This document shows, piece after piece, positions 55,258 through 56,839 of a stretch of 64,000 nt of DNA (its first letter is position 1; every line of letters begins with the position of its first letter). The stretch is from a virus, in IMG/VR virus record IMGVR_UViG_3300022200_000032, positions 13,856-77,855 of that record; one strand, written 5' to 3'. Below the pieces are notes generated by a model. The model was not told the DNA's origin. It made no database searches and saw only the letters and a program-made list of their open reading frames with translations. Position numbers and translations under genes: made by a program.

Positions 55258-55779
55258 GTGCCAAGTCCGCAGAAAGCAAAAGGTAGTAATTGGGAAAGAG
55301 ATGTTGCTAGACAACTTTCTGAAATCTACAACGAAACCTTTATTCGTGTTCCAGGATCTGGTGCGTATGTGGGCGGGTTAAACGCTGCTCGCAAAGAATT
55401 TTTACACGAAGGAACCATACGAGTTCTTAAAGGAGATATTGTTCCTCCATTAAGTTTTCCTCGTTTTAATGCTGAGTGTAAGAGTTATAAAGAATTTCCG
55501 TGGCATCAACTATACACAGGCGACTGCAAAGTTCTTGACGGTTGGATAACTCAGTGCCTGGATGCTGCGGATGATGGAGATGTGAACTTTTTGTTCATGA
55601 AATTTAACCGTAAAGGCACATATTTGGCATTTGAACAGGCATATCAAGATAATTTTTTAACACCAAGTTACACATTATATTCAGGGAAAAATTTAGGCAA
55701 GAACTGGATCATAACAGATTTAGGTACATTTTTAGGCATAAGGCATAATCAAGACCATCTTAAAGAGTTGTGTGCATAA
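55258..55779 (+). CDS. Holliday junction resolvase-like PD-(D/E)XK nuclease
   Basis: KAKGSNWER, RVPGSGA, GDI, AECKSY; ATAAGTA at 55246-55252. Confidence 0.75.
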   Translation: MPSPQKAKGSNWERDVARQLSEIYNETFIRVPGSGAYVGGLNAARKEFLHEGTIRVLKGDIVPPLSFPRFNAECKSYKEFPWHQLYTGDCKVLDGWITQCLDAADDGDVNFLFMKFNRKGTYLAFEQAYQDNFLTPSYTLYSGKNLGKNWIITDLGTFLGIRHNQDHLKELCA

Positions 55780-55799
55780 GAATTAGCGCACGGTTAAAT

Positions 55800-56245
55800 C
55801 GTTGATAGCCTAGCTTGGGGCGATTAGTACAAGCGGTAATACTCTCTGTTGTGTGGAGGACACCCAAATCGTGAGCAGCGACACGGACTTCAATCACTAT
55901 CCTTAACAGGACGCTGATACGACATGCCTGTGAACTTTGAACGTCTTTTTGTAGTTCACTAACGTATTTGATTGAATGTATGGCGAATTAAAAAGGCTAA
56001 ATGATGCTGCTCTGTCAAAAAATCAACAGCAAGTTTGCATATAGCGGGCAATTAGTTATATGCGAGCTCCCGTCAGAAACAAGTCTAGAGTAGGGGGTAC
56101 AGGCTGACCGCCTCCGTGGAATGTATATTAAACATCTTAATCTCTTATAATTGCTGGCTAGCTCACTCGACGAAAGATGAATTAGTTTGAACTTTACCCC
56201 CGGATGGGTAAAGTCTGACCAGTCTATCTGACGAAGATATTATCC
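55800..56245 (+). ncRNA. Candidate large, highly structured ncRNA (~450 nt)
   Basis: No ORF of 60 aa or more; many nested stems whose G-U pairs work only on the + strand; loop-distal pseudoknot. Confidence 0.65.
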
Positions 56246-56307
56246 GATCATACCTGCAATTAACATTAGATTTACAATTATACAACAATAATTAGATTTT
56301 AAAACCA

Positions 56308-56351
56308 TAAGATTGAGCGTTAGCGAAATCTTAGATATGCGTAGCATATCT
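56308..56351 (+). other. Tandem stable ssDNA-type hairpins (GA-GC-GTTA-GC-GA; GC-GTA-GC triloop), candidate priming/origin signal
   Basis: TAAGATT-GAGCGTTAGCGA-AATCTTA and AGATATGC-GTA-GCATATCT, after an AT-rich tract. Confidence 0.45.
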
Positions 56352-56435
56352 TCGAATATATAATTAATGATGATATGCTCATACTCTGAGTTGAGATATC
56401 AGAATCATTCAGAATTTTTGGTAATAATGCTCATG

Positions 56436-56472
56436 AAAAAGCCCCTAGCATTTTGGCACTACTAGGGGCTTT
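56436..56472. terminator. Intrinsic terminator, probably bidirectional, between convergent units
   Basis: AAAGCCCCTAG...CTAGGGGCTTT stem; longer U tract on the minus strand. Confidence 0.75.
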
Positions 56473-56506
56473 GATTTAGGCATGTTACGTTGCGTAACAC
56501 ATTTAT

Positions 56507-56839
56507 TTATTCAAATGTGTCTGGCCAGTCACGATAATATGCGTGTTTGATATCTTCAACAAATTGATTGAAACTCTGATGTTTTGCTTCGAGTTCTCCC
56601 TCAAGTGGAGCCACACGTTTGAATGCATCTTCAAGTTGTGCCATGTCTTTAAACTCCATCATGATGTGCCACTCTGGCAAATTAGGAATTGAAGCAAAAC
56701 CCATCTTACAACGTGTAATACGATAACCTTCGCATTTGCCTTCGTTTTTTAAGTGATCCAGAAATCCCTTCATGTTGTTTACCCAATCAATGTCGGGTAT
56801 GTCTGTGGACTTTTCAGCCCAGATATGATAAATGTCCAT
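56507..56839 (-). CDS. DUF6614-like small alpha/beta protein
   Basis: MDIYHIW, YRITRCKMG, EWHIMMEF..MAQLEDAF resemble that family from memory. Confidence 0.55.
   Translation of the reverse strand: MDIYHIWAEKSTDIPDIDWVNNMKGFLDHLKNEGKCEGYRITRCKMGFASIPNLPEWHIMMEFKDMAQLEDAFKRVAPLEGELEAKHQSFNQFVEDIKHAYYRDWPDTFE

What the first reader, a model, noticed from the sequence alone, without database searches (positions are those of the whole stretch)
55800..56351. Structured RNA, AT-rich tract and GNA-loop DNA hairpins: possible RNA-primed replication origin
Seen: downstream of the RNA-like element (G5 tract at 56093-97) is an AT-rich stretch (~56255-56307), then two abutting hairpins, TAAGATT-GAGCGTTAGCGA-AATCTTA and AGATATGC-GTA-GCATATCT. 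Established: d(GC-GNA-GC) mini-hairpins and sheared G-A pairs are unusually stable in ssDNA and occur in single-strand priming signals. ColE1 uses a ~550-nt structured primer RNA with a G-tract upstream of a primosome assembly site, and T4 origins are R-loop primed. Inference: the RNA may be a primer RNA and the hairpins a helicase/primase loading signal.
Basis: partly seen in the sequence, partly recalled or inferred. Interest (0 to 1): 0.7.

Follow-up and report, generated by a model that had tools for sequence, protein, structure and literature searches.

The report
Conserved twin hairpin capping phage RNA
Two small abutting hairpins are a real, strongly conserved, single-copy module that ends a large uncharacterised RNA gene in giant T4-like lake phages; it is still open whether they act in the RNA or, as their DNA-type loops hint, as a single-stranded-DNA start signal for replication.

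Summary
The G5 tract, the 81% A+T stretch and both hairpins lie where stated. The hairpins are far from chance: a model built from them finds one copy per locus in over 100 relatives, and all 16 base pairs show compensatory changes. There is one copy in each of six near-complete 307-374 kb genomes.

The hairpins always lie 15-120 nt behind a 350-560 nt structured RNA. Its 5' domain here is a weak Polynucleobacter-1 match (Rfam RF01718). This scan has met the RNA family many times on other DNA as the 'twin-box RNA'.

Two props of the origin reading fail:
- The G5 tract is paired inside a conserved hairpin.
- The AT-rich tract is a clade-specific insert.
GC skew says nothing either way.

The hairpin part of the reading gains support:
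- 62 of 80 variants carry the mini-hairpin DNA motif GCG(N1-2)AGC, on the RNA-sense strand only.
- Tandem G·A pairs are conserved.
- G·U pairs are almost absent.
- Ordinary terminator-like hairpins in these genomes show none of these loops.

Best reading (about 0.4): the 3'-terminal module of the RNA transcription unit. Main rival (about 0.3): a single-stranded-DNA signal of an RNA-primed origin. No expression or replication data were available.

The parts
55258..55779 (+). PDDEXK_15 (RusA-like resolvase-type) endonuclease gene. It is the last gene of the gp55-gp47-gp46-radical SAM operon. The RNA starts about 29 nt after its stop codon.
   Evidence: Pfam PF24608, E = 3e-22, and PHROG 244. In relatives the same position holds a SegE-type GIY-YIG gene, a PDDEXK_15 gene or, once, an RNase H gene.
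55808..55947 (+). 5' domain of the RNA: a weak member of the Polynucleobacter-1 RNA motif.
   Evidence: Rfam RF01718, 39.2 bits against a gathering score of 37. Relatives L078, L054, L067, L087 and L093 score 77-121 bits. Their matches end 226-259 nt upstream of the twin hairpin in the two I computed, L078 and L054.
55808..56245 (+). Body of the large structured RNA ('twin-box' RNA of earlier notes).
   Evidence: RNAalifold on the window, L003 and L004 gives 109 pairs, 13 of them with compensatory changes and many G·U pairs. There is no credible protein-coding ORF in the gap. The gap is conserved at 80-82% identity in L003 and L004.
56093..56115 (+). G5 tract paired in a conserved hairpin. GGGGG(U) at 56093-98 pairs with (G)CCUCC at 56110-15, and the inner GG at 56102-03 pairs with CC at 56108-09.
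   Evidence: pairs at columns 317-339 and 326-333. The homologous hairpin is GAGG.../...CCUC in class A and AGGGG/CCUCU in L032.
56169..56178 (+). Box 1 (GACGAAAGAT), preceded by ACUC.
   Evidence: Repeated word found. The same arrangement is seen with other words in relatives: AGATAATG, GGATAATG, AGATGAAGC, ACATGATG.
56191..56214 (+). Hairpin between the two boxes, followed by the conserved CUGACC.
   Evidence: Covarying 8-11 bp hairpin in 62 distinct relatives. G·U pairs make up 5.1% of its pairs.
56230..56238 (+). Box 2 (GACGAAGAT), preceded by AUCU.
56245..56307 (+). AT-rich linker, 81% A+T at 56255-56307. It is poorly conserved and specific to a few clades.
   Evidence: The distance from the UGAC motif to the hairpin is 86-98 nt in the window clade and mostly 25-72 nt elsewhere.
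56308..56333 (+). Hairpin 1: a 7-bp variable stem, tandem G·A pairs, then the tip GC-GTTA-GC, which is the mini-hairpin motif GCGTTAGC.
   Evidence: R1 scores 68.5 bits. The six stem pairs and both tip pairs covary, with GC changing to AU. The GA/GA dinucleotides are invariant or nearly so.
56333..56351 (+). Hairpin 2: AGAUAUGC-GUA-GCAUAUCU. It has a conserved AGA...UCU base, a variable middle, and the tip GCGTAGC, which is the mini-hairpin motif GCGNAGC.
   Evidence: All 8 pairs show compensatory changes.
56436..56477 (.). Canonical bidirectional intrinsic terminator. The stem is GCCCCTAG at 56441-48 with CTAGGGGC at 56462-69, flanked by an A run and a T run. It lies between the twin hairpin and the convergent DUF6614 gene.
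   Evidence: Sequence. It is conserved in L003 and partly in L002. It appears in weak terminator-type Rfam matches.
56507..56839 (-). Convergent DUF6614 gene, which bounds the gap.
   Evidence: Pfam PF20319, E = 8e-26.

Best explanation
The two hairpins are the fixed 3'-terminal module of a large structured phage RNA gene. This RNA is the 'twin-box' RNA, whose 5' domain is the Polynucleobacter-1 motif.

Shown here:
- The module is conserved, covarying and strand-specific, on the same sense as the RNA.
- It is single-copy per genome.
- It always lies 15-120 nt behind the last conserved element of the RNA.
- It always marks the end of the unit.

Inferred: the operon ending in the small nuclease gene is transcribed through the RNA and the hairpins fold in the transcript. 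Hairpin 2, with its paired AGA/UCU base and a short U-rich tail, acts as a weak terminator or as a 3'-end protecting stem-loop. Hairpin 1, with its tandem G·A pairs and G..A-closed tip, is a specific recognition or tertiary-contact element of the RNA.
For: - All 24 PDDEXK-anchored loci that reach far enough have the module on the gene's strand, 420-560 nt behind the stop codon.
- 45 loci found by a sequence pattern alone each have a 310-560 nt ORF-free gap upstream. Apparent shorter gaps come from spurious opposite-strand frames. In 9 of 10 sampled loci the upstream gene is a small nuclease.
- Tandem G·A pairs and the G..A loops exist only on the RNA-sense strand. GCG(N1-2)AGC occurs in 62 of 80 variants on that strand and in 0 of 80 on the other.
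- The upstream RNA has RNA-level covariation with G·U pairs on the same strand and matches Rfam.
- The unit ends at hairpin 2. Either a convergent gene's reading frame reaches within about 10 nt of it, or a T4-type late promoter (TATAAATA, TAATAAATA) follows within 2-20 nt and drives the next gene.
- No promoter-like box lies between the nuclease stop codon and the RNA in about 50 loci, which fits co-transcription.
Against: - Hairpin 2 is a poor intrinsic terminator. Only 0-4 U follow the stem, and the scan did not call it. The window clade needs a separate canonical terminator 90 nt downstream.
- The loops do not follow RNA rules. GNA triloops closed by C-G dominate, and 33 of 74 GNNA tetraloops have a pyrimidine at position 3, so they are not GNRA. 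None of 29 tri- or tetraloops of ordinary terminator-like hairpins in 1.07 Mb of these genomes is closed by G..A.
- G·U pairs are nearly absent: 4 of about 583 paired cells, and 4 one-sided against 164 two-sided changes. The RNA body's own hairpin has 5.1%.
- Mini-hairpins of this type are much more stable as DNA than as RNA (PMC13037366).
- No RNA reads were available.
Confidence: 0.4

Rival explanations
1. RNA-primed replication origin. The structured RNA stays hybridised to its template near its 3' end, at the purine-rich linker. The hybrid is processed into a primer. The displaced strand has the sense of the RNA and folds into the twin mini-hairpins. These keep the bubble open and/or recruit the helicase or primase.
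For: - The module is single-copy in each of six near-complete 307-374 kb genomes.
- The hairpin tips are the mini-hairpin DNA motifs GCGNNAGC and GCGNAGC on the displaced-strand sense in 62 of 80 variants, about 75 times the background rate. The window's GCGTTAGC is the very motif of the St-1/alpha3 primase origins. Related motifs occur in G4 ori and RSF1010 ssiA.
- Pairing is almost entirely Watson-Crick, and tandem G·A pairs sit in the Y-GA-R context.
- The 16 nt before hairpin 1 are 67% purine and 55% A, against 54% and 31% in the RNA body.
- The neighbours are recombination and replication nucleases: gp46/47, a resolvase-type PDDEXK or GIY-YIG gene, and once RNase H.
- 19 of 78 cassettes carry a further GA-GCGAAGC-GA motif on the opposite strand, which recalls paired ssi sites.
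Against: - No priming, R-loop or marker-frequency data exist.
- The G5 tract is paired and not conserved, and the AT-rich tract is not conserved.
- No skew signal appears at the cassette.
- Known T4 origins use short unstructured transcripts from middle promoters and need no hairpin signal (established knowledge). Here no promoter is seen directly upstream.
- A deeply conserved, pseudoknotted 350-560 nt RNA is more than a primer needs.
Confidence: 0.3
2. Another DNA-level signal that is not an origin. Possibilities are a structure-specific target of the adjacent resolvase-type nuclease that seeds recombination-dependent replication, a clamp-loading or enhancer site for the late promoter that often follows, or an N4-type hairpin promoter.
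For: - The same DNA-type signatures apply as for the origin rival.
- A small structure-specific nuclease gene is constantly adjacent, and gp46/47 are in the same operon.
- A late promoter lies 2-20 nt after hairpin 2 in co-directional loci.
- Mini-hairpins occur in N4 early promoters.
Against: - The stems of 6-8 bp are short for cruciform extrusion.
- The motif is strand-asymmetric, whereas a cruciform needs both strands.
- The nuclease family changes between phages while the hairpins stay the same.
- The late promoter is absent where the next gene is convergent, as in the window.
Confidence: 0.12
3. An ordinary, possibly bidirectional, intrinsic terminator and nothing more.
For: - It sits at the end of the transcription unit, often at a convergence point.
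- An A run lies upstream and a short U run downstream.
- Strict Watson-Crick pairing would suit folding in both transcripts.
Against: - The sequence features are conserved across phages whose neighbouring protein is only 53% identical: GA/GA, AGA/UCU, exact abutment and G..A loops.
- It occurs once per 307-374 kb genome, whereas terminators occur many times.
- Ordinary terminator-like hairpins in the same genomes look different.
- The window clade keeps the module beside a separate canonical terminator.
- On the opposite strand the G·A pairs become C·U mismatches.
Confidence: 0.08

Closest known systems
Polynucleobacter-1 RNA motif (Rfam RF01718; Weinberg et al. 2010, PMC2864571)
   Same: The first 140 nt of the RNA upstream of the hairpins match this model. 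The match is weak here and strong in relatives. The habitat is the same: fresh water, Burkholderiales-type hosts.
   Different: The Rfam model covers only the 5' domain. The remaining 250-400 nt, the twin boxes and the twin hairpin are not catalogued. Several classes of the cassette lack the Polynucleobacter-1 domain altogether but keep the twin hairpin.
ColE1 origin: RNA II primer, G-run/C-run hybrid anchor, RNase H cut, downstream primosome assembly site (established knowledge)
   Same: A structured RNA of about 550 nt is followed by hairpins on the strand that an R-loop would displace. RNase H is an occasional neighbour.
   Different: The G run here is paired within the RNA and is not conserved. 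No antisense regulator is known. No evidence exists of a hybrid or an RNase H site. The host replication machinery is T4-type, not PriA/DnaB.
Primase-dependent complementary-strand origins of phages G4, St-1 and alpha3, and RSF1010 ssiA/ssiB, with mini-hairpin DNA GCGNNAGC/GCGNAGC (review PMC13037366)
   Same: The loop-closing motifs are identical: GCGTTAGC and GCGTAGC in the window, and GCGAAAGC, GCGATAGC and GCGCAAGC in relatives. Sheared G·A closure is shared. Some cassettes have motifs on both strands.
   Different: Those are signals on packaged or conjugative single-stranded DNA read by DnaG or RepB'. Here the genome is double-stranded T4-like DNA, the motif sits on a tandem G·A platform with a covarying stem, and function on ssDNA is untested.
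T4 oriF (uvsY) and oriG (34) R-loop origins (established knowledge)
   Same: The phage lineage is the same. The RNA 3' end as leading-strand primer is an accepted mechanism in it.
   Different: T4 origins consist of a MotA-dependent middle promoter plus an adjacent DNA-unwinding element, with no structured RNA and no hairpin signal. Here the AT-rich tract is 450 nt from the RNA start and is not conserved.
Stable intercistronic and terminator hairpins of T4 (C(UUCG)G type; established knowledge)
   Same: Short, very stable stem-loops at the ends of transcription units in a T4-like phage.
   Different: The loops here are G..A-closed tri- and tetraloops, which is a DNA stability rule, and not UUCG or GNRA. 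The module is a fixed pair and is single-copy per genome.

Membership tests
Polynucleobacter-1 RNA (RF01718) | Score at or above Rfam's gathering threshold (37 bits) over the full 141-position model | tested here: met
   39.2 bits at 55808-55947 on the + strand, model positions 1-141. This is marginal. Relatives score 77-121 bits.
Polynucleobacter-1 RNA (RF01718) | The hairpins of the finding lie inside the family model | tested here: not met
   The model ends at 55947. The hairpins start at 56308.
   The gap is 55780-56506, behind the PDDEXK_15 gene. The same layout is seen in more than 100 loci.
Twin-box / extended Polynucleobacter-1 phage RNA cassette | Two copies of one short word flanking a hairpin that is followed by UGAC | tested here: met
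   GACGAA(A)GAT at 56169-78 and 56230-38 flank the hairpin at 56191-56214.
Twin-box / extended Polynucleobacter-1 phage RNA cassette | Twin hairpin (tandem-G·A hairpin abutting an AGA...UCU hairpin) at the 3' end | tested here: met
   R1 scores 68.5 bits at 56301-56361.
ColE1-type RNA II primer origin | A free G run in the RNA that anchors the hybrid on a C run of the template | tested here: not met
   The G5 tract pairs with CCUCC in a conserved hairpin. The strict motif search did not find it in classes C and D.
ColE1-type RNA II primer origin | RNase H-processed RNA 3' end extended by DNA polymerase | not testable with these tools
   No RNA or nascent-DNA data. No RNA run holds the stretch.
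ColE1-type RNA II primer origin | Single-strand priming signal on the displaced strand downstream of the primer | tested here: inconclusive
   The hairpins are on the RNA-sense (displaced) strand and carry mini-hairpin DNA motifs. Activity was not tested.
T4 oriF/oriG-type R-loop origin | A promoter immediately followed by a conserved DNA-unwinding element | tested here: not met
   No late or sigma-70-type box lies upstream of the RNA in about 50 loci. MotA boxes were not modelled. The AT-rich tract lies 450 nt downstream and is clade-specific.
Mini-hairpin DNA priming signals (G4/St-1/alpha3 ori, RSF1010 ssiA) | GCGNNAGC or GCGNAGC at a hairpin tip | tested here: met
   The window has GCGTTAGC and GCGTAGC. 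62 of 80 variants have at least one and 11 have two. Background is 0.14-0.27 per kb per strand. The motif definition is from PMC13037366.
Mini-hairpin DNA priming signals (G4/St-1/alpha3 ori, RSF1010 ssiA) | Primase-dependent initiation on the single strand | not testable with these tools
   Needs an ssi assay or in vitro priming.
Intrinsic (rho-independent) terminator | G+C-rich stem followed by a U tract | tested here: inconclusive
   Hairpin 2 has 7-8 bp with 2-4 G-C pairs, and 0-4 U follow it. The scan did not call it in the window.
Intrinsic (rho-independent) terminator | Position at the end of a transcription unit | tested here: met
   Either a convergent gene's reading frame reaches within about 10 nt, or a late promoter follows within 2-20 nt.

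The most novel reading that the evidence does not exclude
The cassette (structured twin-box RNA, purine-rich linker, twin mini-hairpins) is the conserved replication origin of a very large group of uncultured T4-like phages. The RNA would be the primer. The hairpins, folding on the displaced DNA strand, would be the single-strand entry signal. This would be a ColE1/G4-like logic in a dsDNA myovirus.
Probability: 0.3. Interest if true: 0.85.

Novelty: new variant of a known kind. Interest (0 to 1): 0.6.

Why it matters
The replication origins of environmental T4-like phages are unmapped, and the Polynucleobacter-1 RNA has been an orphan motif since 2010.

This work shows that the motif is only the head of a 400-600 nt cassette. 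The cassette always ends in one defined, single-copy, covarying twin hairpin. The loops of that hairpin follow the stability rules of DNA rather than RNA.

That gives a compact 45-nt element that can be tested directly. Useful tests are RNA 3'-end mapping, an ssi assay, DRIP, and melting of DNA against RNA oligonucleotides.

If it is an origin signal, it would be the first conserved origin module for this huge phage group and a new use of mini-hairpin DNA. If it is an RNA module, it defines the true 3' end and a recognition hairpin of a widespread phage RNA of unknown function.

Tried and rejected
- **Expression.** No RNA holder was listed for the stretch.
- **Cultured relatives.** blastn of the gap and of four RNA classes against 50,697 phage records found nothing. 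R1 with filters off found nothing in the nuclease loci of SCTP-2, Phosso, PA5oct, Melnitz, Variovorax V45v66, syn9 and YB07.
- **GC skew.** Cumulative skew in G004, G001 and G003 simply follows transcription direction. The switch lies at the gp55 promoter, 6-7 kb from the cassette. Third-codon-position skew corrected for gene strand shows no two-replichore step anywhere. This is uninformative.
- **Apparent absence from genome G009.** This was a filter miss. With filters off the module is at L280:7302-7359, behind a GIY-YIG gene.
- **Hammerhead, K-turn and box C/D readings of the GA...GA hairpin.** Rejected on topology, by my own reasoning. Rfam has no hit.
- **Hairpin 2's arm as a third copy of the twin box.** Rejected: 1 match observed against 2.8 expected.
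- **Pairing of the window's CTAACG at about 55962 with the hairpin-1 loop.** No covariation in L003.
- **ViennaRNA energy comparison of loops.** Neither the RNA nor the DNA parameter set holds a GNA bonus, so the test is empty.
- **Genome-contig scan.** The pattern was too degenerate and gave only chance matches. Those loci served as a negative control for R1.
- **The 33-aa ORF at 56368-56469.** It is not conserved in L003 and runs into the terminator, so it is probably not a gene.

Full report
**Setting.** The window is part of a 77.9-kb IMG/VR contig that CheckV rates as 22% of a genome, so it comes from a jumbo phage. The genes upstream of the finding are T4-like: the gp55 late sigma factor, gp47 (SbcD), gp46 (SbcC), a radical-SAM/SDR fusion and a PDDEXK_15 resolvase-type endonuclease at 55258-55779. 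On the other side, convergent, are DUF6614, an ATE_C-like gene and a baseplate hub gene. The 727-nt gap at 55780-56506 holds the finding.

**Observation.**
- The G5 tract is at 56093-97.
- The tract at 56255-56307 is 81% A+T, against 61% background.
- Hairpin 1 is 56308-14 paired with 56327-33, enclosing GA-GC-GTTA-GC-GA.
- Hairpin 2 is 56333-40 paired with 56344-51, with loop GTA.

The 61-nt segment folds into exactly this twin hairpin. The z-score is -3.6 as RNA and -3.1 as DNA, and it is worse on the opposite strand at -2.5.

**The hairpins are a conserved, covarying module.**
- Alignment with the three closest relatives already shows compensatory changes in both stems. This includes L002, whose upstream RNA is unalignable.
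- A simple motif search and then a covariance model (R1, built from 23 sequences) find exactly one copy in the 64-kb window. They find one per locus in 61 loci that were fetched through the flanking genes. These include all 24 PDDEXK-anchored loci that extend far enough. The copy is always on the sense of the PDDEXK gene.
- On 39 distinct sequences, 95.6% of cells pair, against 32-46% in slid controls. All 16 pairs show double changes, including the two G-C pairs at the tip of hairpin 1, which change to A-U.
- An unbiased pattern scan of IMG/VR followed by R1 adds 45 more loci.
- 569 kb of unrelated bacterial DNA give no hit.
- The module is single-copy in five near-complete genomes of 307-374 kb. 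It is also present in a sixth, complete genome, where the fast filter had missed it.

**Anatomy of the module.** The consensus has these parts, in order:
- an A/purine-rich run;
- a 5-7 bp variable stem;
- GA, then a 2-bp stem (GC, or AC/GT), a 3-4 nt loop, the 2-bp partner, then GA (often with one more A);
- the partner strand of the variable stem;
- immediately after, AGA, 4-6 variable pairs, a loop, and UCU.

The base 5' of each GA is almost always a pyrimidine.

**Link to the RNA.**
- Upstream of the module there is always a 310-560 nt ORF-free stretch.
- In the window clade this stretch folds into a multi-helix RNA with 13 compensatory pairs among only three sequences.
- Its first 140 nt match Rfam's Polynucleobacter-1 motif weakly, at 39.2 bits.
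- Other relatives match strongly, at 77-121 bits. In the two I computed (L078, L054) the match ends 226-259 nt before the twin hairpin. In genome G005 the gap is about 245 nt.
- Other classes lack that domain but share the 3' half: a G-rich hairpin, two copies of a short word flanking a covarying hairpin, then UGAC.
- Earlier notes of this scan describe the same family on many other genomes as the 'twin-box RNA'. So the RNA is not new to the scan.
- Even the closest phage by protein identity (L002) carries a different RNA class but the same hairpins.

**What fails in the origin analogy.**
- The G5 tract is not free. It pairs with CCUCC in a conserved hairpin. It is GAGG/CCUC in the Polynucleobacter-1 class, and the strict motif search did not find it in classes C and D.
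- The AT-rich tract is an insertion of the window clade and of one class-C group. Elsewhere the last conserved RNA element lies only 25-72 nt from the hairpins.
- Cumulative GC skew in three near-complete genomes follows transcription. Its local switch is at the gp55 promoter, 6-7 kb away, because of conserved gene order.
- Codon-third-position skew corrected for gene strand shows no replichore structure at all. This is what one expects for T4-type recombination-dependent replication.

**What argues for a role in the transcript.**
- The module marks the end of the unit. Either the reading frame of a convergent gene reaches within about 10 nt of hairpin 2, or a T4-type late promoter (TATAAATA, TAATAAATA) follows within 2-20 nt and drives the next gene.
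- The AGA/UCU base with a short U-rich tail resembles a terminator whose U tract is paired with an upstream A tract.
- No promoter-like box separates the nuclease gene from the RNA in about 50 loci, so the whole is probably one transcript.
- The upstream gene is SegE-type GIY-YIG in 7 of 10 sampled loci, PDDEXK_15 in one, RNase H in one and unknown in one.

**What argues for a DNA-level role.** The hairpins obey different rules from the RNA body.
- G·U pairs are almost absent: 4 of about 583 paired cells, and 4 one-sided against 164 two-sided changes. They make up 5.1% of pairs in the RNA's own box-flanked hairpin.
- Hairpin-2 loops are GNA triloops in 42 of 81 cases and G..A tetraloops in about 15 more. 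63 of 79 are closed by C-G.
- Hairpin-1 tips are GNNA in about 59 of 79 cases. Counting both hairpins, 33 of the 74 GNNA tetraloops are not GNRA, and GATA alone accounts for 21 hairpin-1 tips.
- 62 of 80 variants carry the exact motif GCG(N1-2)AGC on the RNA-sense strand and none on the other. This is about 75 times the genomic background.
- The motif is the 'mini-hairpin DNA' of Hirao and colleagues. It is extraordinarily stable as DNA, considerably less stable as RNA, and is found at the primase origins of G4 (GCGAAAGC) and St-1/alpha3 (GCGTTAGC, as in the window), in RSF1010 ssiA and in N4 promoters (PMC13037366).
- Ordinary terminator-like hairpins in 1.07 Mb of these phage genomes have no such loops, 0 of 29.
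- 19 of 78 cassettes, though not the window clade, carry an invariant ATCGCTTCGCTC shortly before hairpin 1. On the opposite strand this reads GA-GCGAAGC-GA.

**Weighing.** The positional evidence and the clear RNA nature of the upstream element favour a 3'-terminal RNA module. The loop rules, the strict Watson-Crick pairing and the single copy per genome favour a single-stranded-DNA signal. On the RNA-sense strand, that is the strand an R-loop would displace.

| Reading | Confidence |
|---|---|
| RNA 3'-terminal module | about 0.4 |
| RNA-primed origin | about 0.3 |
| Other DNA-level signals | about 0.12 |
| Plain terminator | about 0.08 |

The two leading readings do not exclude each other. 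No expression, R-loop or replication data were accessible, and no cultured phage with the cassette was found. The decision therefore needs the experiments listed under next steps.

Noticed in passing
L002:3520-4095 compared with window:55780-56351: The phage closest to the window by protein identity (PDDEXK 90%, DUF6614 97%) carries a different, unalignable class of the upstream RNA but the same twin hairpin. RNA classes therefore seem to be exchanged between close relatives while the terminal module stays.
   Followed up: partly
L052, L066, L093, L087, L007, L012, L153, L180 and others, 15-33 nt (up to 92 nt) before hairpin 1: An invariant block ATCGCTTCGCTC occurs in 19 of 78 cassettes of three RNA classes. 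It is the reverse complement of a tandem-G·A mini-hairpin (GA-GCGAAGC-GA) and is also complementary to the hairpin-1 tip. It is absent from the window clade. Its meaning is unknown.
   Followed up: partly
L194, L145, L154, L169, L200, L192, L205 (downstream of hairpin 2): Where the next gene is co-directional, a T4-type late promoter box (TATAAATA or TAATAAATA) follows hairpin 2 within 2-20 nt.
   Followed up: partly
L205:11433-11861 (- strand); probably also L192: In at least one phage the gene directly upstream of the RNA cassette is an RNase H gene (Pfam PF00075, E = 3e-44) instead of a GIY-YIG or PDDEXK nuclease gene.
   Followed up: no
window:56352-56440: The spacer between hairpin 2 and the canonical terminator holds a TATATAAT box and a 33-codon ATG frame (56368-56469) that runs into the terminator. 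It is not conserved in L003, so it is probably not a gene.
   Followed up: partly
L054, L067, L204, L144 (AGTGTGGC or AGTGTGAC); L180, L200, L162, L186 (GTGACTG(C)): A second pair of identical words, 55-60 nt apart, occurs in the 3' half of many cassettes in addition to the AGATAAT-type boxes.
   Followed up: no
G009 (L280:7302-7359): The fast first look of the genome search missed a diverged twin hairpin (GA/GA changed to AA/GU, hairpin 2 starting GAAT). cmsearch without filters found it at 27.6 bits. Absence calls made with R1 through that route are unreliable.
   Followed up: yes
L280:4957-8158 (G009): In this complete genome the cassette is surrounded by three NUMOD3 or HNH homing-endonuclease-like genes as well as the minimal GIY-YIG gene.
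   Followed up: no
L127:1486-2501 (Sinorhizobium phage Phosso): A gene-free gap of about 1 kb lies between the RNase HI gene and the PDDEXK resolvase gene of this cultured 469-kb phage. R1 finds no twin hairpin there. It was not examined further.
   Followed up: no
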